Assembly: GCA_039621445.1 (NCBI GenBank) | Contig: CP154954.1 | Location: 45,425,847-45,489,846, forward strand | Direction of reading: 5' to 3' | Source of the DNA: Euglena gracilis | Taxonomy: Eukaryota | DNA length: 64,000 bases | Shown: one piece after another, positions 1,340-32,725 of the stretch | How the letters are laid out: the number at the start of each line of letters is the position of its first letter | Position numbering within the stretch: position 1 is the stretch's first letter | Made by a program: the position numbers and the translations under genes | The notes under the pieces: generated by a model | The model's input: only the letters and a program-made list of their open reading frames with translations | Database searches by the model: none | What the model was told of the DNA's origin: nothing

Positions 1340-1345
1340 GGGGGC

Positions 1346-2249
1346 CAGGGACGGTTTTAAGACCGGGGGGAGGTCCCCCATACCAACCCAGAAGGTACCC
1401 CTACCCCCCCCTGGGGGGAGGGGTCCGGGGACCCACTTTTGGGGGGCCAATTCTGGGGTCAAAAAAAATTCGCTTCGCGCCAAAAAAGGCCAAAAAGTGG
1501 CCAAAACCCACCAAGCCCTTTGGAGGAACTCCCCTGGGGGGTGGTAGGGAAGGGGAGGTAGGTTCGTAGGAGGTAGGGTCGCGCCGCCCAACCATTTTGC
1601 TGCTTTGGTTGGACCGCAGCCGGCCGCGGCCCGACCCAAAAAAATCTTGGTTGGGCTGCGGGCCAACCATTTCCGATGCTGAAATCATGAAATTCGGTTT
1701 GGTTGGACCGCGGCCACCCAACCACAACAGACCCAGCGAACTGCATCGCACAATGGCGGTTAAATTGGCTCCTACAGGGTACTCAGCGAACCCAGAAGGC
1801 CGCCCAACTAGGGTTAATACACATGGGGGGACCCTCGCTCGGCGCCTTCCGCACTGCTCAGGTCCCCCCATGTTTTTAACCCTCTTTGGGTTCGCTGAAT
1901 ACCCTGTAGAGGCCAATATACCGAAGTTGAGTGGGAAGGTTTGAACTGTTTGCATGAGAATCTTAACCCTAACCCTATTCCTTCAAATAATGTCATAAAA
2001 TCTTTTTGTTTTGTGATAACCTTTTGCAGTTTGCTTGGGGCCGCGGCCCAACCAAATCAGAATTCTGACAGCAAAGTATGGCCGTGGTTGGGTCGCGGTC
2101 GGCCGCGGCCCAACCAAACCCCTGTTTTGGTTGGTTGACGGCCGGCCGCAGCACCTACCTCCCACGAACCCGTGACATCCCACCCCCCCCCTGGGGGGAG
2201 GGGGGGTCCAATGGACCCCTCCTCCCAAACTTTTAAAAAAAAATCCCTG
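1346..2249. mobile_element. hAT-type MITE (CAGGG...CCCTG) with nested insertions; candidate non-conventional intron
   Basis: Termini CAGGGA / TCCCTG; flanks CTTGGGGGC vs CTTGGGGC; end sequences resemble the MITEs at 12264, 33864 and 47689. Confidence 0.75.
1561..2170. mobile_element. Nested MITE with 17-bp TIR, itself containing a ~36-bp inverted-repeat element (1765-1916)
   Basis: GGTTCGTAGGAGGTAGG ... CCTACCTCCCACGAACC; inner TTGGCTCCTACAGGGTACTCAGCGAACCC / GGGTTCGCTGAATACCCTGTAGAGGCCAA. Confidence 0.65.
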
Positions 2250-2252
2250 CTT

Positions 2253-2325
2253 GGGGCCCTTGCGGCGGCTGTTGCTGCGGCTGGCGCTGCGGCTGCCTCT
2301 GTGGCAGCAATGGGGCCTGGACTGC
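2253..2325 (-). CDS. Exon, RS-rich (QSRPHCCHRGSRSASRSNSRRKGP)
   Basis: Acceptor TTTTGCAG; phase 2 matches the donor at 3200; no GT donor before the MITE. Confidence 0.65.
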
Positions 2326-3199
2326 CTGCAAAATGCTGTTTGCTGATATTTAAAGCTGTGCACCCACACAATTGTGGCTTGAAAAAAGGGGGGGAGGGCA
2401 GAAAAGTGGAGACGGTATTTCCTTATTTCATCATTTCGCACCATTTTGTGGATGGTGCGCGGGGGGGGGGGGGTGCAAGCAGGCCTAATAATTTCTTAAG
2501 GCGCCTTCAAAGCCTTAAAAACCTTGAAAACCTTGCATTTTTTTGGAAAAAAGAAGTCACAAAATCAAGAACAAGCCAACTCCAGGAAAAAAGATGATTT
2601 TTGGCATCCCTTGAACATTGTGCATTCACCCAATAAATGTGTTTTTGGACTTTTCATTTTCAACCTGGACCAACGTTGGTTCGATGCCTGGCTAGCTCTT
2701 TGATGTCCCATGGAAAATAGACGCCTTAAAATTTTTAAAAAAAATCAAAATGCCTTTTTTAAAAAAAAACAACCTGAAAAACCTTTAAAAAAATGAAAAA
2801 TTGCCTCAAAATGGCCCCAAAATCATGATGCCTGTGTGCAAGGAACAAAGACAGATTGAACCCCCCTCCCAAATATAGAACCCTCCTGGGGTCCTTGATT
2901 TAGCGACCAAATATTTGAACTTCACTCTCTGAAATGGGGCTTTTGAAACGGGGAATAAAAAAGCACCAAAAAAATTGAGGTTCGGAATTTCAGAGACAAT
3001 TTTTTTGAATAAGTGCGGCCTGATAAATTTCGTCCACCAATTCCAACCAAAGCAAACAAAAATACTCTCCAAAAATGGTCTAAATTGTTGCACATGGTGA
3101 AGGGAAAATGGTAACCTTCGGATCGGCAACATTCTTGACCAAATTTGGAACACCCCTCCGAGGGTTAGAACTGGTTCTATATTTCAGGGGAGTACACAC

Positions 3200-3349
3200 C
3201 GGCTGCGCGTGGAGTGGCTGCCTTTGCTGCGGCTGCGGCTCTTGCTTCGGCTCTTGCTTCTACTGCGGCTCTTGCTGCGGCTTCGACTTTGAGTACGCTG
3301 TGCTGCAGGTGAACTGGCCTTGTCTCCAAGCCTTCGGAAAACCTGAGAC
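3200..3349 (-). CDS. Exon, RS domain (SQVFRRLGDKASSPAAQRTQSRSRSKSRSRSKSRSKSRSRSKGSHSTRS)
   Basis: Acceptor TTTTGTTTCAG after a (TC)n tract; donor CG|GTGTGT; repeat variants are synonymous in the RS frame (AGC/AGT, CGC/AGA/CGA, AAG/AAA). Confidence 0.8.
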
Positions 3350-3356
3350 CTGAAAC

Positions 3357-3360
<4 letters not shown>

Positions 3361-3423
<63 letters not shown>
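3361..3423. repeat. (GA)n microsatellite; further GA tracts at ~5770, 6118-6163 and 6184-6204
   Basis: Direct inspection. Confidence 0.95.
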
Positions 3424-3427
<4 letters not shown>

Positions 3428-3447
3428 CTGGTTCCTGGTTTTCCAAG

Positions 3448-6117
3448 GTGTGGAAGTGGCTCCACTCCAGCCTCCACCGCGCTCCCCCAGCCCCATGGGC
3501 CACAGCCCTCCCCCTCGATGAGGCCCATGCCCCCTCCCAGGCCGACTTTCTCTCCGTCTTCGGCCACCCCGCACCCCTCCCCGGGGGCATCGACGACTTG
3601 CTGGCCGAGATGACGCCGCCCCCTTCCCCCTCCGCCTCCCAGCCCTCCGACATGGATGTGATGATCATCGACCGGGAGGCCCACGTGCGCCACGGCAAGC
3701 AGCAGGCCCCGAGAGGAGCGTCCCGATCCGTCCACTGGCCAGGGCTCAGAGAGGGGGACGCCCCAGAGGTGAGGTGCGCCCAATTCGTGAGCAGCAAGGG
3801 CAAGGACCCGGGGGTGATGCCGCCAAGGATCCCGCCCCCGGCGAGCCCGGGCGAGCCTCTACCGATCAGTCAAGAGGAGGGGGACGCCCCAAACAGCCGC
3901 AGCACCAGGCCGGCCCACACCGGGGCGGGGTTTACGCCGGGCAGTGAACCGGGGGTGACGCCGCCAAGGATCCCGCCCCCGGGGAGCCCGGGCGGGCCTG
4001 AGGACAGCGAGGGGGACGCCCCGAGCCACGGACTGGCCCACACCGTGACGGGGTTTACGTCGGGCTGTGAACTGGGGGTGACGCCGCCAAGGATCCCGCC
4101 CCCGGGGAGCCCGGGCGGGCCTGAGGACAGCGAGGGGGACGCCCCGAGCCACGGACTGGCCCACACCGTGACGGGGTTTACGTCGGGCTGTGAACTGGGG
4201 GTGACGCCGCCAAGGATCTCAGCCCCAGGGAGCCCGGGCGGGTCCGTGATCGTGCTGCCAGGACCGGCCTCAGAGCCGAGGGGGGACGCCCCAAGCGACA
4301 GGCTGGCCCACACCGGAGCGGGGTTTACGCTGGGCGGTGAACCGGGGGTGACGCCGCCAAGGATCTCGCCCCCGGGGAGCCCGGGCGGGCCTGAGAGTTG
4401 CCAGCCCACGGCCATGGAGACAGAGACGGACGCCCTCGAGGGGGTTGCAGCGCAGCCAAGCACCGCCTCCCAATCCCCCAGCGCCCCAACGGCCCCCACA
4501 GCCTCCCAAGGCCCCCCTCTCTCCAACCCGGACTCCGCCTCCCCAACCCCATGCCTCCCCCCACCCACCCGTGAGGTCCTCCAGGAGCGGGTCGTCATCA
4601 TCGAGAGGCAGGTCCCCGTTCCCGTGCGGGAGCCTGTCTTCGTGGATCGGGTCATCGAGCGGGTCGTCCCGGTCCCGGTGCAAGTCCCCGTGGAGGTCCG
4701 GGTCCCCATGCCCGTCCCCGTCCCCGTGGAGGTCCGGGTCCCCATCCCCATCTACCTCCCTCCCTCCGCACCACAAGCCCCCTCCATCGTGCAGAATGTG
4801 CATCTCAACGCACTCACCATCGGCCCCTCCTCCTCCTCGTCTTCCTTGGCCCTCCTCCAAGGTCTCCCCATTCCCGCCATCGAGGCCCCCAACCGCCTCC
4901 TCCTCACCGCTCCCCCGTCGCCACCCAGCGACACCACCGACGACGACACCTCTTCCCAAGGCCCCACGAAGAAGAGGAAGTTCACGTCGTTGAGTGAGTG
5001 GCCTGCCGAGTGGCGAGCCAAGTACGAGGAGTGGAAGGCGGTGCTGAAGGACCCACGAGAAGCAGGACGAGGACAAGCCATGTACGAATCATGGGACCCG
5101 GACCTGCAGAACCAGGTCTGGGCCTCGTGCGGCCCCCAGCGGCGGAGCATCATCCAAGAATGGCAAGGAGCCGCAGCAGCCCAGAACGTCGAGCGCCCCG
5201 CGGACCTCGAGCGCCAGACGCATGACTGGCATGAAGGTGCCAGGATCGGGGAGGCCGACCATCCCGGTCCAAGGCGCCACCCCCACGGCCCCCACCAGGG
5301 CCACCAACCCTCCGGGAGCCACGTCCCCGGAGTGAGACCGAGCCAAGTCCGGGCGGGTGGCAGGCAGCGTGGTGCCTGTGCCCCGCCAACCCCGTCCGCA
5401 GGGGAGCAAGCGAAGCGGGATTTGCCCCGGCCCCAAGCCCCTTGGCGACCCAACAGGGAAGCGGCCCGTGGGCGCCGCCCTGGGGATGCTTTTTCTTCAG
5501 CAGCCATGAGATCTTCTAGACCCTCTCGCCCTGGGAGTGCGCAGGGCAACCCAACCCGAGGAGAAGAAAGAGACCGAAGAGACGAAGGTGTCGCATGGAC
5601 ACCGGTGCAGAGCCGGCGAGGGGCGGCACTGCACAAGGAGATCAAGAGGATGGCGGACAGCATCTCCGCCCTCAGCGCGGAGCTGAAGAAGCTACAAGAA
5701 AAATGCCAAGCTCAACGCCACTTTCGGGGGGAGTCGGAGCCCCCAACCACGTCAAGACCATCGCGGAGAGGAGAGAGAGAGAGAGAGAGGGAGGCAAGGG
5801 CCGGCCCCCCTCCGATCCCCTCTCATCCCAACCCATGGGATTCCCTTCAAGGCCATCGTCGCGGCGGACGGCGTCGGCAACGGCGGCAGAAGGAGACCAT
5901 GACCAGCACGGACGCGGAGGCGGCGACATCGCAGGTGTGCCACCCCCGGCCTGCCGGAGCTGGTATCTCCGGCCCTCCAGTTCGGGCCGCACCGGCTGGA
6001 GGTGGGCGTGCAACCCGTGCGAGGCCTCCCCCCTCTGCGGCACCCCCCCACCTCCCTCCCCATCCCCTCCCATCCCCACCCCCACCCACACCCAGAATCC
6101 CCCGTCCATATCAATCA

Positions 6118-6165
<48 letters not shown>

Positions 6166-6228
6166 CATCCATACCAATTTCCAAGAGAGAGAGAGAGAGA
6201 GAGAAAGAGAACCATGTTCCTTGAGTAA
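3448..6228 (+). CDS. Long intronless ORF, probable 5' part of a non-LTR retrotransposon, antisense within a host intron
   Basis: 926 open codons (first ATG at 3610); 41-aa tandem repeats, VPV repeats, PTKKRK, a W-rich domain, GARIGEADHPGP motif and a coiled coil; bounded by (GA)n; no RT or endonuclease visible. Confidence 0.55.
3805..4395 (+). repeat. ~123-bp in-frame tandem repeat, about 5 units (GVTPPRIPPPGSPGG...)
   Basis: Unit starts near 3811, 3952, 4075, 4198 and 4345. Confidence 0.9.
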
Positions 6229-6268
6229 TTACAACCAACCTGCTTTTGTGACTCTGGCTTACCCCAAG

Positions 6269-6764
6269 CAGGGGTTTTCTTAAGGATCCGGGGGGGGGGG
6301 GGGGGGGGTTCCGCGGGCCGGCTGGAAAAAGGTGCTGGCTGGACTCCCTTAGTTGCACTCAGGCTTCTTTTCTGTACATGGCCGGCGCTAACTTCGCTTC
6401 TGGCCCAGTTGTCAGGTGAGTGGTGAGTGGGGGGTGGGTCCGGCCGGCTGGGAGCTGGACCCGGTGGGTACCCAAAAAAACACCCGAAAAAGCCGAAATA
6501 CAGCTGGGTTGGCATTTTTCAGCCAAATTTAGGTGAAACCCCAAAAAGCACCCAAAAATGCCATTTTTGGCCATTTTTTGACCCCTTTCTTCAAAAATTT
6601 TCTCTGCCAGGCTGGCTTTGCTGGGCTGGCCCAAACTTTGTTTCAGTGGACCCCTGGGGGGGGTCCACCACAGCCTGGCTGGGAGGTGCTGGCTTGAAAA
6701 AAAAGTGATGGCTGACTGGACCCCCCCAGGAAGCAAGGCCCCGTACAGCTTAAGAAAACCCCTA
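6269..6764. mobile_element. hAT-type MITE
   Basis: CAGGGGTTTTCTTAAG ... CTTAAGAAAACCCCTA; TSD degenerate. Confidence 0.65.
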
Positions 6765-7940
6765 CCCCAGAGGCAGGTTCAACCTTAGAGCTTTTCCAAC
6801 AAGGTTTTTTTGAGAATTTTCAAAGTTCCCAAAAAAATTACAAACGCCACACAAAACCACAAGGAAGCATGACGCAACCGTTTTCCCAATTATGCTCCCA
6901 GAATGTATGGGGGTTGGGCCTGAGACCAGGGCATTGCTTAATGAGGGGAGGGGGAGGGGGGGTCCAGGTCAGAAGCTGGAAAATTTGAGCTGGCTGGAAT
7001 AAGGCTGCTGGCTAATCCCCCCATGGGGGTCCCCCGGGCTTGAACTGGGCCAGACTGGGAGTCGAACAGGGGATCAAAACATTGAAACTCCAAAAAAGCC
7101 CAAAAAAAACTGCCAGGGGTGTAAAAAAAAAACACGGGGTTTTTGACCCCAAATTTGCCCTGGCCAGCCCAAATCCGACCCATTTTTGCAATTTCTGGCC
7201 ATTTTTGCATGTGTGAAAGCCAAAGATCCGTTTCTGTCAAGCCCAGGGGGGCACCTTGTGCAATGTGGTGCCTGCCCAAAGCCCCCTTAGGCTGCACTGA
7301 GGCTTCTTGCCTGTTTATTGCCGCCACTAACTTCGCTTCTGGCACCCCCCCCCCGGGGGAGGGGGTCATTTTTAGGCCCCAGTGAGGGCTTGATTTTTGG
7401 CGGTTGTAAACATCTTTTTTTTTCAGAGTTTGCAAGTCGCCTTTTGTGAATCAAAAAAAAAACACCATCAGCCCATTCTTTTCAGCGGCACTTCAAAAAT
7501 GCGCTGCCAGACAAAATGGAGCTTGACAAAATGCATTTCAGCCAACTTTAATAGGTGGAAAATGTATCGACCCTGAAGGATTATTGTAGAAATAATTCAA
7601 AACAGGAAAATGCTGATGAGGATGATGAATATTTTGTGAAAATGGTGCCAAAAAGTTCTCTGACACTCCATACCAAAGACACAAATTGGTTTGAGATGTA
7701 CCAAAATTCAACTTCAAAATTCTTTGATTAAATTTTCAAGGAAAAAGTGGGATGATTGAAAAACAAAACAATTTCCTCACCTAACAGAATACCAATCAAG
7801 CGAAACAGAAAAATGTTTTTCCTGTCCTTCTGAAACCCATTGTGGTTGGGTATTCTTTTGCTGTTTTAGGAATTTATAAAGACAGACCTATGCAGGATTA
7901 TGCAGGATCCCCCTGCAGGGAATCTTTAAACTCAGCACAC

Positions 7941-8086
7941 CCTTTCCGCAGCAGCCTCCGACCATAGCCTGCAGGCCCAACGTTAATATCGTGCCAGTTG
8001 ACGTTTGCATTCTCCGGCTCCGGAGTTGGGGCGCGCGTGCTGTCGCTGTGTCGGCTGCTGGAGCTGCTGCTGGAGCTACTGGAGCT
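7941..8086 (-). CDS. Exon (poly-Ser, RHSDSTRAPTPEPENANVNWHDINVGPAGYGRRLLRK)
   Basis: Donor GG|GTGTGC, phase 2 matches the 3349 acceptor; 5' boundary set by a non-conventional intron. Confidence 0.7.
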
Positions 8087-8235
8087 GGGCCCAGCCCCTC
8101 CCATTCATTACCATGCCATGCCAAAGCCAGCCAACCGAGGCACTCAGCTTCTCAGTTGCAGCGTAAAGACTGCCGCAAGCCTTTCAGCCTGACGCGGCAG
8201 ATTTCTGTTGCAAACGGCCAAAGGAGGGACTGCAC
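8087..8235 (-). other. Non-conventional intron (149 nt)
   Basis: T|GTG-CAGTCCCTCC ... GGAGGGGCTG-GGCCC|A; 10-bp stem with one G:U pair; in-frame join GRSAS|SSSSS. Confidence 0.75.
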
Positions 8236-8466
8236 AGAGGCACTGCGCCCGCGTTGGGCAGGCTGAGGCTCCGCGGGAGGCATGCTGCTGGGAACCTCCA
8301 CGCTGGGGGCGGCCACCGCTGGTATCTGTGACGGGGTGGTAGAGCTGAGGATGGATGGGTTGGCATACATCACACAAGGGAGTGGCGGCCGGCTTGTTTC
8401 GTCCCCAAACAGCTTGACTTCAGATCCTGGCCCACAGGGGTGGTCAGCTGCCATTTTCTTTTGTAA
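8236..8466 (-). CDS. Exon (LQKKMAADHPC...PAQRGRSAS)
   Basis: Acceptor ACCGACAG after a T-rich tract; 77 open codons. Confidence 0.6.
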
Positions 8467-8733
8467 CTGTCGGTTTAAAAACAACAACAACAACTAGCTG
8501 TGAAAGGGCACCACAAGGGCATCAACTTCTCGTCCTACTTCAAACGACCTAAAAATGCTTTCTATTGGGGAATAGATGTGGTCCCCATTTGGGAAAGGAA
8601 TGTGCGTGGGATGTTTGGGACGTCATCACAGGAGTGGGGCTCCAACAGCTCAGCGGGAAGGGGGCCCCCGCACACCAGCGGGGAGGAGTACTGGCAGGCG
8701 AAGCGGGGGAGGCAGCGCCACTGCCCATCGGCA

Positions 8734-9270
8734 CCTTGCTGCAGGAAGGGGCCGCAGCGGAAGCGGAAGTGCAAGCCACACTGGGACCACCGCAGGGCGG
8801 CGCCGGACGCCAAGGAATGGAGGGAAGCCGGCACATCGCCGGGAACCGTCGCACAGACCCTTCCGCGCGATGGCTGCAAACGCATTGCCTCGGGCCAAAA
8901 CAAAAACAAGGAGGCAAAAAACCAGAAACACGCAGCAATGCTGTACGTTAATACTAATGCTGATGCCAATGCTGTGACCCGATCAATTAAATTGAATCAA
9001 ATTAGATAGATCAAATTAAAACAAAAATGTGGACAGCAAAATTTTATTTGAGAGGATCAAATCACTGCGGCTGGATCAACCCCTCGCGGGCCGTCACACA
9101 GCCAGCGGGCCCGCCCTGCGCTGCTCGGTGGGTCGGGGCCTCCGCGGCAGGCACGCCCTGGGCGGTCCTCGCCGAGGACTCCTCCTGCTGGAGCTGCTCG
9201 AGCTGCTGAAGCCGCTGGAGGTCCTCCGCCCCCTTCGCCAGCTCCTCCAGTGACTTCTCCTCCGCGCCGA
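8734..9270 (-). CDS. Two candidate exons (~9065-9265 AEEKSLEELAKGAEDLQRLQQLEQLQQEE...; ~8734-8873), boundaries and frame uncertain
   Basis: GC-rich coding-like composition; plausible splice sites. Confidence 0.4.
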
Positions 9271-17355: not shown

Positions 17356-17395
<40 letters not shown>

Positions 17396-20445: not shown

Positions 20446-20493
20446 AGCATTCGACGCTAAAACCTCTCATACACATTCACATCCACATCATAC

Positions 20494-23749: not shown

Positions 23750-24135
23750 CTGAAAGACACACGGTGTGCACGGTGTGCCGCACACCGTGTGTCGGCATCC
23801 CCTTTGGCCAGGCTAGACTGACCTGTGGGACACCTTGGGGGGGGGTCCAGCAGCCCTAACCCACCCACCACCCACTCTTAAACCACCCCCATACATCTCT
23901 TTACGGGAGGGGTTGCACCCAAACATTCTTTAAAGACCCGGATTTGCTGGGCTCGGGCTAGAAATTTAGACTGGCCAGTGATGAGTGGGCTGGGCTGAAA
24001 TTGGATAACTCAAAAAAAATTACCTGCAAGGCACAGTTTCCCCTTCAAACTCTCAAAAACACCATTTCCCCTTCACCATTTTCGACCACTTTCTCTAATT
24101 TTTGGCGCTTTGTGCCGAATTTTTTTGGCAGCAAC

Positions 24136-24202
24136 TTGGAGGGGGTAAGCGGCTGGGTTGGGATAAAATTGGGGCTGACTCGCAGCTGCTGCAGCCAGGG
24201 GC
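24136..24202 (-). CDS. Candidate exon (PLAAAAASQPQFYPNPAAYPLQ)
   Basis: TTTTGCAG acceptor, phase 2 matches the 24530 donor. Confidence 0.5.
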
Positions 24203-24529
24203 CTGCAAAACCTTCAAGAGACATATGGTCACTGCTCCAGACTCACTACAGCTAACATCAAACACAACTTGGCACATAACCCAATGTCAGAACAGCCATA
24301 TGATGGTCCCTTGGGATTTGGGGGTCGGTCCCATCTTCATGATAATCGTCATTAATCTTCATAATATCTCCATCTTCATAAGCAGTGGGTCCACTGGCGC
24401 TTTTCCAACAACATGGCAACCCCCGGCAGTGGCATGGGGCGGCCATTTAAATCATAGATCCAGTGAACCCCTGGGACAACAGGCGCAACCCCTCCCCTTC
24501 CCTCACAGCATTGCATGATACAAACAAAC

Positions 24530-24882
24530 CTGCAGAGTATCCAGTTTGGGGAGGAGCCACAGGAGGGGCATAGGAGGCCTGCGGGACTGGGAATGGGGCG
24601 TGTGGCTGAAAAGAGCCGAAATCCGAAGGTCGGTGAGGGGGGAGGGGGACGGGGAGTGGCCTGTGCCCAACGACATTCTGAACCCGCGCACTGGGGAAAA
24701 AAGGGGGGCAATGAGCACAGTTCGCCAGCGGGCCTGGGGATGGGGGCAGGCCTGACAGGGGGTGGGAAGGGGGTGGGGGTGGCAAATGGAGGGGAAAAGG
24801 TGGGCGTCCCTTGGGAGAGCAAATGGCTTGGCAGAGGAGGGGGGGAGCGTGGTATCGTTGGGGCTGCGGTGCTGGGGGGCAC
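24530..24882 (-). CDS. Exon, Pro-rich (VPPSTAAPTIPRSPPPLP...)
   Basis: TTTTGTTCAG acceptor, phase 0; AG|GTTTGT donor; 117 open codons. Confidence 0.65.
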
Positions 24883-25945
24883 CTGAACAAAAGGTCCCGC
24901 AAAAGAATAAACAATGACTGACAGATTCCTCTGCTCCAAACCACCGCAAATGCAACCAGGCGTCTGCCCCAACACTGAATGCAACAGGATTCGTATTTGT
25001 ATTCGTGAATCAGAAATTACCAAAACGTGCCGAAAACAGAAATTTCTGAGAGGGAGTAAACGATGGTTCTTTTTAACTTCGGGCTTTGGGGCAGAGATCC
25101 ATAGAAATTCGAGGCCAGTCGTGTAAAAGACAGATTTTAGAACTTGTGACAAAAACAGAGACATTTTGATACACACATACATACACATCTGGGGTCAACC
25201 CCAGCCAGGGCTGTGTGGGAAGTGGGTCAGTGGGTGTCAACCCCCTGCCCTCCCCTGGGTCCAAAAAAAACCTCTGAAAGGAACGTTACCTTCCCATGCT
25301 CACCAAAGACATGTAGAATTTTCAACAGAAAAAAAAGCCAAATTTTGGCACAAAAAGAGCAAAAACATTCATATTTAAATTTCATATTCATATTTATTTT
25401 TCTTTAAAATTGCCATCGTTTGTTGCAGACACAAACAATTTCTGAAGCCAAAGGGGTCCCGACCCTCTGGGGGAGGGGTTCAGCTAACAACAACCTTCTT
25501 CTCCAGCCAACAATTCCAGCCTCCTACCTGGCTGGAGGTTCGCCAGCCAGGCTGGAGGCTTGCGAACCTCCAGCTTGGCAAAGCCTGGTTTGCCAAGCTG
25601 GAGGTTTTTTCCAGCCTGGCGAACCCGGGCTGGACCGATAAAGGGTTCGAATTGGCCAAAAACGGCATTTGGGTTTTTTTTATCTTTGGGCTTTTTCCTC
25701 GAAATTTTGGGCGATAATTTTCAACCCAGTTGGATTTGGGCTTTTGCCAGCTTTCAGGAATCAACTGGGTGCAGTCAGGCAACCGGTTGGCAATCCGGCA
25801 ACCACACCCCTGGTGTCGGGGTTGGGGAGGGAGGGAGGGAGTTAACAATTCAAAATAAAAATACAAAAACATTGATCTCTTGATTGAGGTTGAGATTGAG
25901 GTTTTAAGAACCGGGGAACACCACACGGCAAAGATTTCTGCACAC

Positions 25946-26089
25946 CCATTCTAGACGTTCCGTCTCTCTCATGCAGAACCACTGAACCATTTCTGGAATT
26001 GAGACATCTGGGCTAAAATGGTGGCCAAACTCACGAATAGCCCTCATCCGTAACTCCTCTGGTGACAGCTCCATCAAATCATCAGCAAG
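25946..26089 (-). CDS. Exon (LADDLMELSPEELRMRAIREFGHHFSPDVSIPEMVQWFCMRETERLEW)
   Basis: CCTGTGCAG acceptor and TGG|GTGTGC donor; 48 codons; helical, protein-like. Confidence 0.7.
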
Positions 26090-29000
26090 CTGCACAGGAA
26101 TGGAATGATAATGGGAGAGGAAAAAAACGCTTTTCAAAACACCCTGTTCACGTCCTTCATCATTTCCCTTGTATCATCTCAATCGCAAACCTTGGGAATT
26201 GAACCAGAACCAAAAATTGACCAAAGGACGCACAGGGCCCCCCCCCCTCGGGGTTGGCTAAAAGAGGGGGGGGGGGGACATGGCCCCCCGCTTGAACAGT
26301 GACGCGGTCCGGGTGACTGACTTTCAGCCCGGTGCAAAGCGCCGGACCGAAAACTTTGACACCCCAAAACAGCCAAAAGTGCCATTATGGGCACTTTTGG
26401 GCAAAATTTGTCAAAAAAATTTCGGTGCAAAGTGCCAGAAGGGAAAAAAAAATGCCCTTTGGGGGTCCCGGGAACCCCCCAGGGGTGGTCTGGACCCCCT
26501 TGTCAGGTGAAGGGGGTCCGGACCCCCCCCCCCCGGTCCGGGAGGGGGGGATGCCCAAGCAAATTTCCCTTGATAATGGCCATTTTTTAGGCCTCAGCAT
26601 CTTCGGTGCCAGGGAGTGTGCTATAGCACTGCTACCCCAAAATCCGACCTCCCCCGGGGGGGGGGGCGGGAAAGAGGGAGGGGGGGGGGGAAAAAGGGGG
26701 GGGGGGGGGGAAAGAAAGAAAAAAGGAAGACAAGACAAACCGGGAGGTTAGGATAGCGAAAAAAAAAATGCCACCTTTTATAGATTTTATAGAGTACTGG
26801 GATTTGATCGCGAGAAGGGACAGGAAGAACTTGTGAGAAAGGGCAAACATGCGGCTGAAAACTCCTTGAAACAAACAGCCTCAAAAGATGTGCAGAACAA
26901 ACAAAAAATATGCAAAAATATGTGCTTTTGGCCAAGAGAAAGGCAAATTGTCCACAAAACATGCAATCTCGCACATTCTTTCTTTGTCGATGTGCGCAAT
27001 TGCGCAAATTGACAAAATTTTTTTTTAAAAAAAATCCTTGAACCGTCAACTGCACTTGGTGAAACAGAAACATGTAGGATGCACACCTCATGAAACACAT
27101 TAGGAAACACGAAGGTTCCAGTTTATCATCCTAACGAGCTTTCTGATGTATCTGAGCGACAGATTCGTGTTCTTGTCTGTCAAACAGGTGGGCTGTGCAC
27201 CCTGGCTGTTACGACTATGGGCTTTGGAACGTCCCTGCTGCCTGTAACTGCCGGGTGCCGCACATTTGTTTGATGGAGTCCAACTTTCCACCATTTGGAC
27301 AATGTGATGTGCAGCTAAATCAGAGAAAAAAACACACACCAACCGCTAACACAAAATATGTAACCCCCGAATAGAAGCACAGGTGCGCTTATAGCGGACC
27401 GCCGCCTCCGTCGACGGGGTGCACTTCTAATTGGACCACACCTGCGCGATAACAGTTGGCGTGCGCACTTGCGCACACTGATCATTGTGGTGCAAAACGT
27501 TTGAAACTATTGTGTGGTGAAAAAAAAATTCCAGTTTCATGTAATGCGAAATGTGCAGGAGAACACACCCTATGACAAGAGAAAATTTGTCTCTGCTCTG
27601 TGTGCAACTTTGTACATCTCATCTCCAACCCGCACGATCGATCGTTTTCGCATCATTGGTTTGGAAATTGCCGGGAGGAATTGAGGACGTGTAACCCCCG
27701 TGATTGTTGGGCATTTTTCTTCAAAAATGACGACTTCTGGGATTTAAAATTTCTGCATGTTTAATCTTCCTGCGGCCGGGAATTGTTCTTCTGTTTTATC
27801 ACGGTCTCATTGTTTCCTCGGAAAACAAGCAACGCACCAGTGCGTTGCACAATATCTGGGTGTTAAGTCCCAGTGCTTTCACGCAACCCCACTATGTGTA
27901 ATAATTAAATATTCTCTGCCTCTAAAACAGTGAGATTTGTGGCCACACTTCTGATGCTGCTATTTTCAATTGTTTCCATGGACTCGCAGCATGCCCCCCC
28001 CCCAGTCTGTCGTCCTGGTTGTGGGGGATAACATAGCACCCCTTGGTGGTTGCTGAAGCATAATCACCCGTCGTCACCTGATGTGATTGTTGCAGCAAAA
28101 CCAAGCCAGGGGGGCAAGCGGCGGGAGTTTTCGAGGTCCACCCATTACCGCCGTTGCACATGTGCCCGCGATGTGTCTGTGGTGGGCCACCTATTAAAGG
28201 CCCACAATCTACAATCTCCACATAGACGTGTGGTAGATGAAATTGTACTTCCCAAGGAGCCATTGAAGGTGGTGTTTGTGGTCATGTTTGATGTGTTCTG
28301 TCTGAAATTTATTGTGGACGCAAATGCACACGTCATAATGGTGTGCCCATTTCGTACTTCGACGGCGTGCATCTTTACACACGTGTTTGGTGTGCACAAA
28401 TGTGTCATGCCAACCACATGCGCAACTTCGCAAACTGACCTTTACTTATTCCGACCTGGTGTTTGATACCAGTGTTCTTTCAATGCATGTGTCTGTTTTC
28501 AGAGAGAGACTGCGTTGTAAGCCCTTCCGCTTATTGTTGTTTAGAAAGGCTCAGGCGCGAGGCCTGTTTGTGTGCCATGACACTAGATTGCATCCCTTTG
28601 CACAAATGCACATCAGGTCGGTTGGCGCAAATGCACATTAATGGTGTGCGCATTTGCGCAAAACGGACCTCATCTTCTCTCCCAAACTCGCAGTGTTTGT
28701 CGCACTGTTTTCAGCAGTGTGAATGCTGGGGGATTTATGGCCGTTGTTGGGCACCCTGGAGTGGTCGATGTGCAAAATTGCGCACGTCGACATCCTTTCT
28801 TTGTTAAAACCGCGGCTGCAATACATCATTCCAATGAAATTTGTGTGATCCCCTCACCTGTTTCATCGCGATAAAATATGGCCGGACGCATCCCCGCTGC
28901 AAGTTCGGTGGCGACTCCTGACCCTTCCCTCCCCTTCGGACCACTTTCCCTTCACCCTGCACGGGCCTTCACAAAAAACCCCGGGCACGCCCTCCTTTCT

Positions 29001-30783
29001 GCGTCCCTGTCCAGCGACGCAACTGGACCCACCTTAACCCCCCCATCCTTGTTTCCGTGCTCCAACAAACGTCCAAAAACACAAATCCGAGGCCGAAAAA
29101 AAATAATAAATTGCGTCAAAACCCCCGGAGGGAGCCAGCCAGCCGTCAGCAACCAGTGAGGAGAGCTGCATTACACAAATGGGGGGAGGCGGCACCGGGG
29201 GGGTTTTGGTGATTTTCCACTTTGAGGGGATAAGTCCGGGGGTTTTTGTGACATTCCTGCTTCAAAAAAGCAAAAAAAAAAAACGCAGTTCCCAGGAAAG
29301 CCAATGCCAAAAACGAGAAATTGCCCGCATTTGGTCCAACCCTGCTTCCTCTCGGTCTCGCCCCTTCTTGCAACATCGGCGCCGGAAGCGATTCTTGGTC
29401 GGGTTGCAAAAATGCGCAAATCGATGCCAGATGTGCCGCTTAAGATCCTCAAAATAGGCCATCCACAAGATCCCCACTGCATTCATTCTCCTATCTTCAG
29501 GGGTGTATAATTTCCGGGGCATGACAGCTCTGCTCATTCGGGGCAGGGACCATACCATTGCTTACTGACCCCCTGGTGGGGAAGTGGGGGGTCATTTTCC
29601 ACTTTCAAAAACCAGTCAATCACTTTGCAAAAACCAGTCCCCAACATCCTGCCCCTCCCCCGGAGGGGGCAGGTCAGTCACTTTGACCACTCGGCCAAAA
29701 ATGGCTCAAAATTAATGGATTTTCGTCAATAATCCAAAAAAAAACTGCAATTCTGTGCCACTTTATGGATTTCTTTTGCCAACCTCCCCCAGAGGGTTTG
29801 GGCCAAAAACCAGTCAATCACTCTGAAAAAAACCAGTCACCCCCCAGATGAAGATCGGCCAGCAACAAAATGATTGTGGCCTCCTATCCACATGGGGCAG
29901 GAAAGCCTGGTTGGCGGGGTGGGGGGCACACCCCCCATCCGCCAGGATGCGGATATGTGTGTGGTCGACCTACCCCCACCCAGAACCATCGGGATTTGGG
30001 GATTTATGCACAAACTTGACAGGGGGCGCAACTACACGACTCGAGATACAATCCAGTGCTTCAAGCCAAAAAGGAAAACATATCCCCTGCATTTTGGGGG
30101 GTCCTTGTTCAAATTGGAGGCATTAAGATACCAAAAGCAACAAATATCTCCCCAAATCAAGCTTCACAAATTCTATCTAAGCTTCACAAATATCGCAATT
30201 TTGGGATTTCTGGGATTTTTGGGATTTGGGGAAAAAACTCTGTCAAAACGTTCTGGAACTTCTGTCACATTTTTGTCAAAATGTCAAAATGTCAAAAATC
30301 CAGAAAAGTCAATATGAATTCTGACATTTCTTTGCGAGGATTTGTCAACCAACTAAGAATATGGAGGGCGCCAGTGGTTGCGATATTTCCATACATTCAT
30401 GCATCCATAAACATGAATTATAAGGATAGCTCTGATGAAGCAGGAAAGATGCAACCTTCTCCAACTTCGCAAGCCAGACACTCTTCTGATCACCTGTGGA
30501 AAAAAATTGAGATAATTGACCAGATTACAAAATCTTTGATGTGGCAATGATGAAAACACTTAGAATTCTTCACAAAGGCAAGAACATCAGGGCACTGAGT
30601 TGGGTCCCCCCACCCACCCAGCCCAGCACGGGACCCCCCCGGGGGGGGACCCCAAAACTCGGGCCATCTGAGGGCATTTCCGCAGTCGCTGTCAGCATGA
30701 TATGCTGACAGTCCACTGTCAGCATATCATGGATTGCTGAAAGCGCTGTTTGTGCCTTGGTCCATCGAGTCAAGGCGCAGAAT

Positions 30784-30962
30784 CCTTGACCCCACCTTTG
30801 AACAACACATGATGGCAACCCTGTCAAAACAGGCTGAGAGTCTGCCAAGGTGACCATTTTGGGCTGAAATTGTCTAAAATGGCCACCTTGGGAGAGTCAC
30901 TGCACTCTCAACCTGCGTTGACAGGGTTGCCATCATGTGTTGTTCAAAGGTGGGGTCCAAGG
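30784..30962. repeat. ~40-bp inverted repeat (foldback / MITE)
   Basis: GACCCCACCTTTGAACAACACATGATGGCAACCCTGTCAA and its exact reverse complement. Confidence 0.85.
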
Positions 30963-31879
30963 CTACCCACCCCATATGGACCACCTCGCCCCCCTCGCCT
31001 AAGCTGGGGTTGGAGGGGTGAACGAGAGGGGCAGAAATCATAAAAATTTGGCTCTCGTGAAACTCGTCAGTGCAAGGCAGCAGAGCTGGCTGGGGCATTG
31101 CTGCGTGGGGCAGGGTGTGCCAGTGTGCACATATCCCATGGGCTGCAGAGGCTTTGGGGCTGGGGGTTGGGTACCACCCACAAAATTTGGGGGTGTACAA
31201 ATAATTAACACCCCTGCTGTGGATGCTGCCAAATCTTGTAATATTTTTATCCAGCACCTCACATATGCAGCTGTGCACATTACACGCAAAAAGGGAACTT
31301 TCCCTCCATAAAAAAAATCAACCCCAAAACAGGCTTTCTTTTCAGCAGCACAGAACCCGGGGGGGTTGCTTCAAGAAAACATCAAAACCTCCCAGGCTTT
31401 GCCAAATGAATCCATATCTCCAAACCCCCCCGCTTATAAACCCCCAGACCCCCCCAGGTAAAAATCAAAATGCTTTTGGTTTTCGTTGAAATGAATTTTT
31501 TTGTTTATTTGACGACATAAATGACCCCAACATACAAAACAAATTTTACAGCGATTCCAAAAAAATGCAAAGATGAGGAGAATTTTTTCTTCCATTTTAC
31601 CCCAACACCCCCCCCCCCCCCGTGCTCGGCCCAACCATTTCTTAAACGAAAAACATCAAAGTAAGCAGTGTCCTTACAAAAAGGGAAGTGGGAGGGTGTG
31701 GGGGGGTAGAGGGGGCATATATGGCAAAATAAATTTACGCCCTCGCCCCCCTCAGAGGGGGGAGGGGCGGGGGTGGTCGGGGGGGGGGGCGTGGGGGGTC
31801 TCATCGCAAAGAGCGCAGCACTATTCAAAACTGGGTTAAAAATGGGGGGGGTTATAACGAGGGTGAGGTTGGCAAACAC

Positions 31880-32098
31880 TTTACTGGAGGAATCGGTTTG
31901 CAGACCTTCAGCTTCGTCTGGCACTCCTTGCAAATCAGCTGGAACCGCGCGGCTTGCTGTGACAGTTGTGCCAGCAACCTCCAACCTTCCTGCTGCTATC
32001 AGTTGTCTTGCGGTCTCTGCATCCTTGAACGTCAGGAATCCAATCCGCCCTCCGTTGCGCGCCAACGTGATGACCCAATCCACAGGCCCATAAACAGC
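31880..32098 (-). CDS. Exon encoding most of an RRM (AVYGPVDWVITLARNGGRIGFLTFKDAETARQLIAAGRLEVAGTTVTASRA...)
   Basis: RNP1-like RIGFLTF, YGPV and a terminal beta-strand pattern; GTGCAG acceptor. Confidence 0.8.
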
Positions 32099-32263
32099 CT
32101 GCACGTTGTGATCAACAGAGTTGTAACAGCATTCTTTGACAAAAGTATTTTTTTTTTGATGCAAACGCCGATGCCATTGTAACCCGTTGAACATTTGTTG
32201 AACCCCAATCAGAAGCCCCGGCCCGCTGGGCCCCCTCCAGGCCACTCCCTAAATGGAAGCCAC

Positions 32264-32725
32264 CAAGGCTGGAAAGGGGCCAGTGGCCAGGAAAATGGTG
32301 CTGACTGGCTGGACCGCCCCCATGCAAGGCGGGATTTGACCAGCCATGCAATTGCTTACCGACCCCCGGGGGGGGGGGAGGGGGGTCACTCCACTTTTTT
32401 TAAAAACCAGTCAGCCACTCATTTTCAAAAAACCAGCCAGTCACTACACCCCCCCCAGGGGGGGGGGGTCGGCCACTCAGAAAAACGGCCACTTTCCAGT
32501 CACTTTAGGCCATTTTAGGCCCAAAAAAATTTTCCGGCGCCTTTGGCGCCGGGGTCACTCAAGCCACTTTTGCCCACTCCTGGCCGACCCCCCCCCCCCG
32601 GGGGGGGGGAGGGGGGCCGGGCCAAAACCAGTCAGTCACTCTGAAAAAACCAGTCACCCACCCCCGGGGGGGGGGTCGGTCAGTGCTTAAGCAATTGCCT
32701 GTGACCAGCGCTGGGGGGGTGCATC
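32264..32725 (-). CDS. Candidate first coding exon split by a MITE (32705-32725 + 32264-32339): MHPPSAG|QIPPCMGAVQPVSTIFLATGPFPAL
   Basis: CCCTCCGCAG|G-ATG; frame continues only if the MITE plus one TSD is removed; STIFL is RNP2-like. Confidence 0.5.
32345..32701. mobile_element. hAT-type MITE, family A (copy 2)
   Basis: CATGCAATTGCTTA...TAAGCAATTGCCTG; perfect TSD TGACCAGC; degenerate relatives near 9396, 19175 and 29551. Confidence 0.92.

What the first reader, a model, noticed from the sequence alone, without database searches (positions are those of the whole stretch)
1340..32704. MITE-to-intron continuum: non-conventional intron geometry (3+5 nt) equals the 8-bp TSD of co-resident hAT MITEs
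Seen: seven CA(G/T)...CTG MITEs with perfect 8-bp TSDs, and three non-GT-AG introns that restore the frame when cut 3 nt before CAG and 5 nt after CTG. Since 3+5=8, such splicing removes an element plus exactly one TSD copy, making an exonic insertion scarless. One gene shows all stages: an intact MITE with perfect TSD (32345), a MITE with nested insertions (1346), an intron keeping only family-C TIR ends (12885) and eroded stems (8087, 20609). Established: euglenid non-conventional introns pair CAG(+4..+6) with CTG(-8..-6), hAT elements make 8-bp TSDs, and a transposon origin has been proposed. Inference: active hAT MITEs are generating these introns, and splicing reads the TIR stem.
Basis: partly seen in the sequence, partly recalled or inferred. 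Interest (0 to 1): 0.9.

Follow-up and report, generated by a model that had tools for sequence, protein, structure and literature searches.

The report
Euglena MITEs spliced as non-conventional introns
Small transposons with 8-bp target duplications sit beside non-GT-AG introns that share their end sequences, and one such transposon inside a coding exon is spliced out of the RNA together with one copy of its duplication, which gives direct support to the old idea that these odd Euglena-type introns come from transposons.

Summary
The core observation holds. My scan finds exactly seven CA(G/T)...CTG elements with perfect 8-bp TSDs, plus an eighth with 7/8; reversed and shuffled controls gave none at 7/8 or better.

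RNA contigs and raw RNA reads show 12 junctions on the minus strand, none of them in the DNA-like run. Six are GT-AG and six are non-conventional (NC).

The element at 1346-2249 matches the B MITE family at both ends. It lies in an RS-rich coding exon and is spliced out with a 7-nt slide, leaving one TSD copy. One TSD copy has an extra G, so the geometry is N3/N6. This fits the published code N3CDG...CH'GN5-6|R (PMC12501133).

Five of 14 NC-intron ends share 8 or more bases with the window's MITE TIRs, against a background of 1.5%.

Corrections:
- There are two genes, not one.
- MITE 32345 lies inside a conventional 2,221-nt intron.
- The 8087 stem is strong, not eroded.
- For 20609 only the 3' boundary is supported.
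- "hAT" and "active" are unproven.

A MITE origin is already proposed in print. The 3+5=8 link and free-standing MITE families were not found in my searches.

The parts
736..1102 (.). MITE A1 (element 744-1094) with perfect 8-bp TSD GTCCCAAC. Its ends are CATACAATTGCT / CAGGCAATTGCT.
   Evidence: It is 91% identical to A2. The CAT end breaks the NC code.
1340..2252 (-). Non-conventional intron that is a B-family MITE (element 1346-2249, 904 bp, concentric inverted repeats) plus one TSD copy. It reads N3-CAG...CTG-N6 and lies in the RS-rich coding exon of gene A.
   Evidence: Joint 1336->2250 (skips 913, slide 7) in X1, X2 and 6 X21 reads, 0 in X20. End homology to B1-B3. Inner inverted repeats. 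The reading frame KGPK|AEGAREKRSS is restored.
8087..8235 (-). Non-conventional intron of gene A: GTG-CAG...CTG-GGCCC|A, closed by an 11-bp terminal helix.
   Evidence: Joint 8086->8236, slide 0, in X1, X2 and 7 X21 reads. Sequence. Folds.
10697..11118 (.). MITE C1 (10705-11110) with perfect TSD GATCCAAT. Both TIRs are CAGGCTTTTGCTTAAGG. It lies between genes A and B.
   Evidence: Word depth in X20 is very high over this bin (table 2).
12256..12549 (.). MITE B3 (12264-12541) with TSD ACTCCACC/ACTCCAAC (7/8), downstream of the gene B 3' end.
   Evidence: It is 78.5% identical to B1.
12885..13408 (-). Non-conventional intron of gene B: TGC-CAG...CTG-CCCTC|G. Its ends are CAGGCTTTTC / CAGGCTTTTG, which match the C-family TIR for 9 and 10 nt.
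   Evidence: Joint 12884->13409, slide 0, in X1, X2 and 1 X21 read..
14074..14569 (-). Non-conventional intron of gene B: GCC-CGG...CTG-GCGCC|G (slide 5, shown at k=3). It is flanked by the 8-bp repeat GCACCGCC/GCGCCGCC (7/8).
   Evidence: Joint 14070->14567 in X1 and X2 contigs only. Sequence. CGG-CTG introns are shown to be spliceable in PMC12501133 (section 11).
14684..14940 (-). Non-conventional intron of gene B: ATT-CAG...CTG-CGAC|G (N3/N4, one base short of the code). Its 5' end CAGGCAAT matches the A-family TIR for 8 nt.
   Evidence: Joint 14683->14941 in X1 and X2 contigs..
15043..15088 (-). A 46-nt non-conventional intron of gene B: GCC-CAG...CTG-CGACC|G (k=1 of slide 3).
   Evidence: Joint 15041->15088 in X1 and X2 contigs.. 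Fold.
20609..24476 (-). Inferred non-conventional intron of gene B: TCC-CAG...CTG-CCCCC|A. Only its 3' boundary is supported by RNA.
   Evidence: The piece 20493-20608 is 116 nt ('side'). Phase 1 is needed and met, and the model gives a continuous 750-aa ORF. Contig length bookkeeping fits: 865 nt upstream against 857 expected. The 5' end CAGGGGTT matches the B TIR for 8 nt.
12726..34403 (-). Gene B: 16 exons in my model, with 10 GT-AG and 5 non-conventional introns. Weak RRM at the N-terminus, CID-like middle (by eye), Pro-rich and coiled-coil tail.
   Evidence: Junctions. The four upstream GT-AG introns come from exact mapping of database protein P0001. Two introns (16065-15589, 15464-15262) and 24476-20609 are inferred. 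RRM_1 scores E=0.044, below its cut-off.
1200..8900 (-). Gene A (partial): an RS/Ser-rich protein whose 3' end runs past the stretch I laid. It contains NC introns 1340-2252 and 8087-8235 and GT-AG introns 2299-3199 and 8326-8675.
   Evidence: joints share a contig depth of 112.9/60.6, different from gene B at 83.2/73.1. Frames. The exon or exons between 3200 and 8086 are not resolved.
32337..32709 (.). MITE A2 (32345-32701) with perfect TSD TGACCAGC. It lies inside conventional intron 1 of gene B.
   Evidence: Intron 34319-32099 is GT...AG.
33856..34134 (.). MITE B1 (33864-34126) with perfect TSD TTTCAAAG, also inside conventional intron 1 of gene B.
34771..35217 (.). MITE C2 (34779-35209) with perfect TSD ACTCCAAC, upstream of the gene B start codon.
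   Evidence: It is 73% identical to C1.
39237..39565 (.). MITE C3 (39245-39557) with perfect TSD GTCAGCAT. One end is CAT.
47681..47943 (.). MITE B2 (47689-47935) with perfect TSD GTGCGAAC.

Best explanation
The window is Euglena-type nuclear DNA. This is inferred from the intron code; the run labels are coded. It carries three related families of small non-autonomous DNA transposons. Their TIRs follow the pattern CAGG..TT..TTAAG, they are 247-431 bp long, and they make 8-bp target-site duplications.

When such an element lands in an exon, the transcript folds so that the TIRs pair. The non-conventional splicing system then cuts 3 nt upstream of the 5' CAG and 5 nt (sometimes 6) downstream of the 3' CTG. 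Because 3+5 equals the TSD length, the element and exactly one TSD copy are removed, and the original reading frame is restored. The insertion therefore behaves as an intron.

Over time the interior, the outer TIR and the TSD decay, leaving only the CAG/CTG-closed stem. This gives the graded series seen here: 1346, then 14071, then 12885, 14684 and 20609, then 8087 and 15042.

Shown:
- the MITEs and their 8-bp TSDs
- six NC junctions in RNA
- one MITE-family member spliced out with its TSD
- enrichment of MITE TIR sequence at NC intron ends

Inferred:
- the direction of evolution
- that the ruler and the TSD length are causally linked
- the transposon superfamily
- the nature of the cutting enzyme
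For: 1. Eight elements have TIRs plus 8-bp TSDs (7 perfect, 1 at 7/8). There were 0 such pairs in one reversed and three shuffled controls.

2. One search shows 12 junctions in X1 and X2 contigs, none in X20. Nine of the 12 also appear in X21 raw RNA reads; 14070->14567, 14683->14941 and 15041->15088 have 0 raw reads. Six are GT-AG and six are non-GT-AG.

3. All 6 NC introns can be placed with N3 before C(A/G)G. The acceptor spacer is N5 in 4, N6 in 1 and N4 in 1, and the first exon base is a purine in 6 of 6. This matches N3CDG...CH'GN5-6|R. It also matches the finding that the donor spacer is fixed while the acceptor tolerates +1 (PMC12501133, abstract and sections 7, 8, 11 read).

4. Intron 1337-2249 has both termini homologous to B1, B2 and B3 over about 50-70 nt. 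It has flanking repeats CTTGGGG(G)C, and the mRNA keeps a single copy with the ORF intact.

5. Intron 14071-14566 is flanked by GCACCGCC/GCGCCGCC.

6. Five of 14 NC-intron ends share a prefix of 8 nt or more with one of the 16 MITE TIR ends. The background is 31 of 2056 CAG sites, or 1.5%. Leaving out 1346 and the inferred 20609 intron, 3 of 10 ends do so; my hand binomial gives about 4e-4.

7. Five of eight free-standing MITEs satisfy the CDG/CH'G core in both orientations.

8. NC intron ends pair more strongly than conventional ones, at -12 to -25 against -5 to -16 kcal/mol.

9. Independent literature: a newly gained NC intron in E. agilis gapC carries eight-nucleotide direct repeats (PMC4770533, passages read).
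Against: - Only one intron (1346) is a clear family member. Introns 8087, 12885, 14071 and 14684 have no blastn similarity to any MITE beyond the termini.
- Four of the six RNA-verified NC introns have no TSD-like repeat. Their 8-bp flank matches are about 0-4 of 8, counted by eye.
- The 7/8 repeat at 14071 lies in GCC-rich sequence, where chance matches are likelier.
- Three of eight MITEs (both A copies and C3) have CAT at one end and would fail the published code.
- Two introns are off the 3+5 sum (3+6 and 3+4).
- MITE copies are 73-91% identical, so they are not obviously young.
- The two ends of one intron are not independent, so the statistic overstates significance somewhat.
- X1 and X2 are only guessed to be RNA. 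Three NC junctions (14070, 14683, 15041) rest on these contigs alone.
- A loose code plus frame restoration is easy to satisfy by chance: there were 153 candidates in about 500 nt.
Confidence: 0.72

Rival explanations
1. This is coincidence or convergence. NC introns and the MITEs are unrelated classes that both need CAG...CTG-closed hairpins. The 1346 element is a single MITE that happened to fit the splicing code. The other NC introns have a different origin, and 3+5=8 is numerology.
For: Four of six verified NC introns have neither a TSD nor internal similarity to MITEs. The code is short and easily met by chance. Three of eight MITEs do not fit it.
Against: TIR prefixes of 8-13 nt recur at 5 of 14 intron ends against a 1.5% background. 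A second intron has a 7/8 8-bp flank. An 8-nt repeat is published for a newly gained NC intron (PMC4770533). For a ruler that must restore the frame after an 8-bp duplication, a spacer sum of 8 is the only value that works.
Confidence: 0.12
2. The direction is reversed and mobility is at the RNA level. NC introns are the primary mobile units, for example excised circles that reinsert, and the intergenic 'MITEs' are strays of that process rather than products of a DNA transposase.
For: NC introns are reported to be released as full-length circular RNAs (review PMC11282704, passage read). No transposase ORF was found in the window.
Against: A constant 8-bp duplication of varied target sequence at 8 of 8 elements is the signature of a staggered DNA cut. 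Five of the eight free-standing copies (A1, C1, B3, C2 and C3) lie outside the gene B introns and have no mapped exon beside them; A2 and B1 lie inside a conventional intron, where reverse splicing has no reason to place them. The A family has a CAT end that would not be spliced yet has 2 copies here with perfect TSDs.
Confidence: 0.06
3. The flanking direct repeats come from double-strand-break repair during intron gain, as proposed for the E. agilis gapC intron, and not from transposition.
For: PMC4770533 interprets its eight-nucleotide repeat this way (abstract and passages read).
Against: Break repair does not predict a fixed repeat length, conserved TIRs, or multi-copy families with the same architecture in intergenic DNA.
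Confidence: 0.05
4. The link is the same as in the best explanation, but the elements are not hAT. They belong to another superfamily with 8-bp TSDs, such as Merlin, P or an undescribed one.
For: Two Merlin families with 8-bp TSDs are reported in E. gracilis (PMC8101967, passages read). No hAT transposase was seen here. No paper in the library holds Euglena + hAT + MITE.
Against: Merlin TIRs begin with GG in all families described there, whereas these begin with CA. From memory rather than from any call, CAG(G/A)G termini with 8-bp TSDs are typical of hAT; the B-family end CAGGGAT resembles that of maize Ac.
Confidence: 0.35

Closest known systems
Euglenid nonconventional introns with the code 5'-N3CDG...CH'GN5-6|R (Nomura et al. 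2025, PMC12501133; Milanowski et al. 2014 and 2016)
   Same: They have non-GT-AG borders and a CAG/CTG-closed terminal stem. The donor spacer is 3 nt, the acceptor spacer is 5-6 nt, and the first exon base is a purine. The CGG-CTG variant and frequent direct repeats at the borders are also shared. All six RNA-verified NC introns here fit, or are one base off at the acceptor.
   Different: The papers propose a MITE origin from the inverted repeats but do not describe free-standing MITE families. They do not state the TSD length or note that 3+5 equals it. The 2025 paper set aside 'slidable' introns with direct repeats when deriving its consensus (section 5 read; section 11 re-examines all junctions).
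Introner elements and other transposon-derived introns (Micromonas, Aureococcus, Amoebophrya, Fritillaria; review PMC11282704)
   Same: A MITE-like element with TIRs and a TSD becomes an intron on insertion. Excision removes the element plus one TSD copy, so the exon is restored.
   Different: In those systems the spliceosome uses GT/AG or variant dinucleotides supplied by the element and the TSD, and the TSDs are 3-5 nt. Here the cut sites are set by distance from a TIR stem. The TSD is 8 bp, and the machinery is thought to be non-spliceosomal. I did not test the machinery.
hAT-superfamily MITEs
   Same: They have 8-bp TSDs and short TIRs starting with CAG. Position 7 of the TSD is A in 7 of 9 and position 2 is T in 5 of 9. 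The hAT consensus nTnnnnAn is recalled from memory.
   Different: No hAT transposase or autonomous partner was seen. The A and C family ends CAGGC and CATGC do not strictly fit the recalled YARNG terminus.
Merlin transposons of Euglena gracilis (PMC8101967)
   Same: They are the only DNA transposons with 8-bp TSDs that I found reported for E. gracilis.
   Different: Merlin TIRs start with GG, whereas these elements start with CA.

Membership tests
Euglenid nonconventional intron (code of PMC12501133) | No GT/GC-AG borders at any position allowed by the slide | tested here: met
   All six introns (1337-2249, 8087-8235, 12885-13408, 14071-14566, 14684-14940, 15042-15087) meet this. The ends are listed and checked.
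Euglenid nonconventional intron (code of PMC12501133) | Three-nucleotide spacer followed by CDG at the 5' end | tested here: met
   6 of 6 within the allowed slide: AAG-CAG, GTG-CAG, TGC-CAG, GCC-CGG, ATT-CAG, GCC-CAG.
Euglenid nonconventional intron (code of PMC12501133) | CH'G followed by a 5-6 nt spacer at the 3' end | tested here: inconclusive
   5 of 6 meet it (four N5, one N6). Intron 14684-14940 has N4.
Euglenid nonconventional intron (code of PMC12501133) | Purine as the first base of the downstream exon | tested here: met
   6 of 6: A, A, G, G, G, G.
Euglenid nonconventional intron (code of PMC12501133) | Terminal base pairing that brings the splice sites together | tested here: met
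   Duplex energies of the 22-nt ends are -12.4 to -25.3 kcal/mol, against -5.1 to -16.1 for six GT-AG introns. Terminal helices appear in the MFE folds. The z-scores are modest.
Euglenid nonconventional intron (code of PMC12501133) | Excision independent of the spliceosome, with release as circular RNA | not testable with these tools
   Known only from the literature (review PMC11282704, passage read).
MITE (non-autonomous TIR DNA transposon) | Terminal inverted repeats | tested here: met
   In 8 of 8 elements the 12-nt ends have 2 or fewer mismatches. The shared pattern is CAGG..TT..TTAAG.
MITE (non-autonomous TIR DNA transposon) | Target-site duplication of fixed length with variable sequence | tested here: met
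   The TSD is 8 bp: perfect in 7 and 7/8 in 1. Seven different sequences are seen.
MITE (non-autonomous TIR DNA transposon) | Small, non-coding and present in multiple copies | tested here: met
   The elements are 247-431 bp. Families A, B and C have 2, 3 and 3 free-standing copies in 64 kb; the intron element at 1346-2249 is a fourth B-family member. X20 word depth over the C1 bin is 328,601, against about 50-150 in unique bins. This is a rough guide, not a copy number.
MITE (non-autonomous TIR DNA transposon) | Evidence of mobility, such as empty sites or insertion polymorphism | not tested
   No genome is held for this window. The only DNA-like run laid (X20) holds the left junction of the 1346 element (table 8).
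hAT superfamily | 8-bp TSD | tested here: met
hAT superfamily | Terminal motif YARNG and weak TSD consensus nTnnnnAn (both recalled from memory) | tested here: inconclusive
   B-family ends CAGGG fit the motif; A and C ends CAGGC, CATGC and CATAC do not strictly fit. TSD position 2 is T in 5 of 9 and position 7 is A in 7 of 9.
hAT superfamily | An autonomous partner encoding a hAT transposase (DDE core and hAT dimerisation domain) | not testable with these tools
   No ORF of 180 aa or more in the window looks like a transposase. I sent 17 ORF translations to Pfam and got 0 families. No whole genome is held.
Merlin superfamily | TIRs beginning with 5'-GG (PMC8101967) | tested here: not met
   All 16 TIR ends begin with CA.
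Introner-type transposon-derived intron | The intron equals the element plus one TSD copy, and the element belongs to a multi-copy family | tested here: met
   Met for 1 intron (1337-2249). Not shown for the other five.

The most novel reading that the evidence does not exclude
The euglenid non-conventional splicing system is a molecular ruler matched to the 8-bp target duplication of one transposon lineage. It measures 3 nt and 5 nt from the TIR stem, so any code-compliant CAG...CTG MITE is a scarless intron from the moment it enters an exon. This match, rather than slow decay of older introns, would explain why most Euglena introns are non-conventional. It would also mean that intron gain there is ongoing transposition. 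A bolder corollary is that the cutting activity itself descends from, or co-evolved with, the element's own transposition machinery.
Probability: 0.4. Interest if true: 0.85.

Novelty: new member of a known kind. Interest (0 to 1): 0.62.

Why it matters
[quoted passage not shown] The 2013 paper states that no transposable elements had then been identified in euglenid genomes (PMC3935182, passage read).

This window supplies three missing pieces:
- real MITE families with a fixed 8-bp TSD
- a family member caught functioning as an intron in RNA
- a simple arithmetic reason (3+5=8) why such insertions are harmless

This turns the hypothesis into a genome-wide test that existing assemblies and RNA-seq can answer. 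It also suggests that the 'slidable' introns set aside in the 2025 code paper are the youngest and most informative ones. In my searches I found no paper stating the TSD length match or describing these families. Supplements were closed, and subscription papers are not in the library.

Tried and rejected
- The genome search 'own': no genome is held.
- The look-up of sequencing runs: no RNA holder was listed on record among the contig runs; they are labelled 'RNA?'. I laid X1, X2, X21 and X20 anyway. Only 20 kb (1200-21199) could be laid, so 32345 and the 5' end of the 20609 intron could not be tested with reads.
- Rfam at gathering threshold on the whole window: 0 matches.
- Pfam on 17 ORF or exon translations: 0 families. 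P0001 scores RRM_1 at E=0.044, below its cut-off. My 'CID-like' reading of exons at 20.6, 19.0 and 18.4 kb is by eye and memory only.
- The search for homologous proteins with the CID-like ORF and exon, longer proteins: nothing.
- The search of earlier findings by place, words and sequence: nothing.
- blastn of the NC introns against the window: no internal similarity to MITEs.
- I enumerated introns that restore the frame and fit a loose N3-CDG...CHG-N5-6 or GT-AG pattern in 15088-15600. There were 153 candidates. Frame restoration alone is therefore weak evidence, and the hidden intron there stays inferred.
- I considered a short 115-nt intron 20609-20723 with a start codon at about 20745. 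I rejected it because no such joint is listed, although both contigs would span it, and the contigs carry roughly 860-1,130 nt more upstream (bookkeeping). The model through 24476 gives a continuous ORF.
- Merlin assignment: rejected on the GG-terminus criterion (PMC8101967).
- MITE C2 as an exonic insertion: a 296-aa ORF spans its empty site. It has no Pfam hit, looks non-protein-like, and lies upstream of the gene B start codon. This is left open.

Full report
**What is in the sequence**

I made two independent scans. One started from identical 8-mers flanking 12-nt inverted ends. The other started from CA...TG inverted ends and then scored the 8 flanking bases.

Both return the same seven elements with perfect 8-bp duplications:
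- 744-1094
- 10705-11110
- 32345-32701
- 33864-34126
- 34779-35209
- 39245-39557
- 47689-47935

One search adds an eighth element, 12264-12541, with a 7/8 duplication. Every other pair scoring 7-8 of 8 lies in a 19-bp palindromic satellite at 54.6-55.4 kb. One reversed and three shuffled copies of the window gave no pair at 7/8 or better.

The elements fall into three families:
- Family A has two copies that are 91% identical.
- Family C has C1 and C2 at 73% identity, plus C3.
- Family B has B1 and B3 at 78.5% identity, plus B2.

All three families share a terminal pattern, CAGG..TT..TTAAG. Seven different duplicated sequences occur, so they are target-derived. They show a preference close to nnnCCAAC.

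**RNA evidence**

No whole genome is held for this window. One search offered 19 small-share contig runs guessed to be RNA, one large-share run (X20, probably DNA) and four raw RNA-seq runs.

I laid X1, X2, X21 (raw RNA) and X20 on 1200-21199. Twelve junctions are present in the X1 and X2 contigs, and none is in X20. Nine of them are also seen in X21 raw reads.

Read on the minus strand, six are GT-AG:
- 2299-3199
- 8326-8675
- 13475-13924
- 16132-18330
- 18508-18968
- 19112-20493

The other six are not GT-AG:
- 1337-2249, slide 7
- 8087-8235, slide 0
- 12885-13408, slide 0
- 14071-14566, slide 5
- 14684-14940, slide 1
- 15042-15087, slide 3

Three of the non-conventional junctions (14070, 14683, 15041) rest on the two contig runs alone. 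The 5% sample of X21 had no reads there.

**Geometry**

All six non-conventional introns can be placed with three bases before C(A/G)G, and all six then have a purine as the first exon base. The spacer after CTG is as follows:

| Intron | Acceptor spacer |
|---|---|
| 8087 | 5 nt |
| 12885 | 5 nt |
| 14071 | 5 nt |
| 15042 | 5 nt |
| 1337 | 6 nt |
| 14684 | 4 nt |

This matches the code defined genetically by Nomura et al. 2025, N3CDG...CH'GN5-6|R. That work includes the CGG-CTG variant. It also found that the donor spacer is rigid while the acceptor tolerates +1 well and -1 poorly (PMC12501133; abstract and sections 5, 7, 8, 11, plus passages of the discussion, read).

The ends of the non-conventional introns pair more strongly than those of the GT-AG introns. 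Introns 8087-8235 and 15043-15088 fold with a closing terminal helix. The 8087 stem is therefore not eroded.

**The key case**

The interval 1337-2249 consists of a 904-bp element (1346-2249) plus nine bases.

The element's first roughly 55 nt and last roughly 70 nt align with the ends of B1, B2 and B3. Its interior is a set of concentric inverted repeats. This is compatible with nested insertions or with a foldback structure.

It is flanked by CTTGGGGGC on the left and CTTGGGGC on the right. The mRNA carries a single CTTGGGGC. The reading frame of an Arg/Ser-rich coding stretch (...RRKGPK|AEGAREKRSSSPSQ) is continuous only after removal.

No placement within the slide gives GT-AG or GC-AG ends. 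With the donor fixed at N3, the extra G falls in the acceptor spacer. This gives N6 and a purine at the exon start, which fits the published tolerance.

This is a MITE-family insertion in an exon that behaves as a non-conventional intron and leaves one TSD copy. An unspliced low-depth contig also spans the left boundary (X1 record 1, depth 5.9 against 112.9).

**Is there a continuum?**

- Intron 14071-14566 is flanked by GCACCGCC/GCGCCGCC, a 7/8 match, although the context is GCC-rich.
- Intron 12885-13408 has ends CAGGCTTTTC and CAGGCTTTTG. These match the C-family TIR for 9 and 10 nt.
- Intron 14684-14940 begins CAGGCAAT, which matches family A for 8 nt.
- The inferred 20609-24476 intron begins CAGGGGTT, which matches family B for 8 nt.
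- Introns 8087 and 15042 share only CAG.

Against 2,056 CAG sites outside the MITEs and the satellite, a prefix match of 8 nt or more to any of the 16 TIR ends occurs at 1.5%. Among intron ends it occurs at 5 of 14. Leaving out the 1346 case and the inferred intron, it occurs at 3 of 10. My hand binomial for the second count is about 4e-4. The two ends of a stem are not independent, so the true significance is lower but still clear.

Beyond the termini, none of these introns resembles a MITE.

The graded series is real as a pattern. Reading it as stages of decay is an inference.

**Gene models**

*Gene A.* Junctions from 1336 to 8676 share one contig depth (112.9 in X1, 60.6 in X2). Junctions from 12884 to 20493 share another (83.2 and 73.1).

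*Gene B, 3' end.* The downstream transcript has an in-frame stop at 12726. X2's contig runs on to about 12683 (bookkeeping).

*Gene B, upstream exons.* A profile-free search of 1.84 billion representatives with the RRM-like ORF found P0001 (176 aa). Its five segments map at 100% identity to exons beginning at 34403, 32098, 30493, 26089 and 24882. The exons are separated by four GT-AG introns.

*Gene B, full model.* I added the junctions, two inferred GT-AG introns (16065-15589 and 15464-15262) and a non-conventional intron at 24476-20609. The result is one continuous 750-aa ORF from 34403 to 12726.

*The 20609 intron.* Its 3' boundary is supported because the aligned piece to the right of 20493 is exactly 116 nt. 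The 5' boundary is inferred from three points:
- the phase matches (G|AC)
- the code fits (TCC-CAG...CTG-CCCCC|A)
- the contig length bookkeeping agrees (865 nt upstream in the model, 857 expected for X2)

*MITEs A2 and B1.* A2 (32345) and B1 (33864) lie inside the conventional 2,221-nt first intron. A2 is therefore neither exonic nor an intron of its own.

**What does not fit, or is unproven**

- Three of the eight MITEs (A1, A2, C3) end in CAT on one side. In both orientations they break the CDG/CH'G pairing that the knock-in work found essential (PMC12501133 section 7). They are not ready-made introns, and none of the three has a mapped exon beside it.
- 'Active' is not shown. Copies differ by 9-27%, and I saw no presence/absence difference.
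- 'hAT' rests on the 8-bp TSD and CAG termini only. No transposase-like ORF is in the window.
- Merlin elements with 8-bp TSDs are reported in E. gracilis, but Merlin TIRs start with GG (PMC8101967, passages read).

**Relation to the literature**

- The MITE-origin idea appears in Milanowski et al. 2014 (PMC3935182, abstract and passages read). That paper also states that no transposable elements had then been identified in euglenids.
- It is repeated in the 2024 review, which labels the CAG/CTG as TIRs and the border repeats as TSD-like (PMC11282704, passages read).
- It is repeated again in the 2025 code paper.
- Milanowski et al. 2016 report eight-nucleotide direct repeats at a newly gained gapC intron. 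They read them as break repair (PMC4770533, abstract and passages read).
- The 2025 paper notes direct repeats at 84.4% of introns and excludes such 'slidable' introns from its consensus.

In eight library searches I found no paper that describes free-standing MITE families in a euglenid. None gives the TSD length or points out that the two spacers sum to it. Supplements were closed, and subscription-only papers are not covered.

**Verdict**

The kind of thing is known: transposon-derived introns, and euglenid non-conventional introns with a proposed MITE origin. The new content is the concrete families, the spliced MITE and the 3+5=8 match. I rate it as a new member of a known kind, of solid interest because it makes an old question directly testable.

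Noticed in passing
window 54580-55430: A satellite of about 19-bp units built on the palindromic words ATGGCCAT/CATGACC. It produces hundreds of false TIR+TSD pairs in any MITE scan.
   Followed up: partly
window 3313-6228 (+), inside gene A: A 971-aa open frame flanked by (GA)n and (GAGAGA)n runs. It contains internal ~120-bp repeats and has no Pfam hit. X20 word depth is 10,000-28,000 against about 50-150 in unique bins. It looks like a highly repeated element sitting in an intron of gene A.
   Followed up: partly
window ~40300-41730: A long-TIR or foldback element. Its arms of 144 nt or more are 95% complementary (40499-40642 and 41417-41560). Outer arrays of GGTCGGCCCGACC repeats continue the inverted symmetry outward, and the true ends were not found.
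   Followed up: partly
window 52797-52977 / 53521-53701: A second large inverted repeat: 181 nt, 82% complementary, 543 nt apart.
   Followed up: no
window 1761-1920, inside the 1346 element: A small palindromic unit with 34-nt arms (TAAATTGGCTCCTACAGGGTACTCAGCGAACCCA and its complement). It is nested at the centre of further inverted repeats at 1604-1636/2086-2118 and 1561-1577/2154-2170.
   Followed up: partly
window 7038-7139: A 102-bp segment is skipped in one X20 contig only (joint 7037->7140, slide 0). It may be a copy-to-copy indel in a repeat rather than an allele.
   Followed up: partly
window 14684-14940 (-): This non-conventional intron happens to begin with AT and end with AC. Its other features are those of the CAG/CTG class, with a 4-nt acceptor spacer outside the published N5-6 range, yet it is spliced in both contig runs.
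   Followed up: partly
window 17290-17400 and 17840: (CATA)n and (CA)n microsatellites lie in the 2.2-kb GT-AG intron of gene B. Word depth is very high in all runs.
   Followed up: no
window 34179-35505 (-): Removing MITE C2 plus one TSD copy creates a 296-aa open frame across the empty site. It has no Pfam hit and an odd composition, and it lies upstream of the gene B start codon. Its meaning is unclear.
   Followed up: partly
window 1323: One X1 contig follows the window up to 1323 and then continues for 255 nt with unrelated sequence (table 7). It may be a paralogue or an alternative junction in gene A.
   Followed up: no
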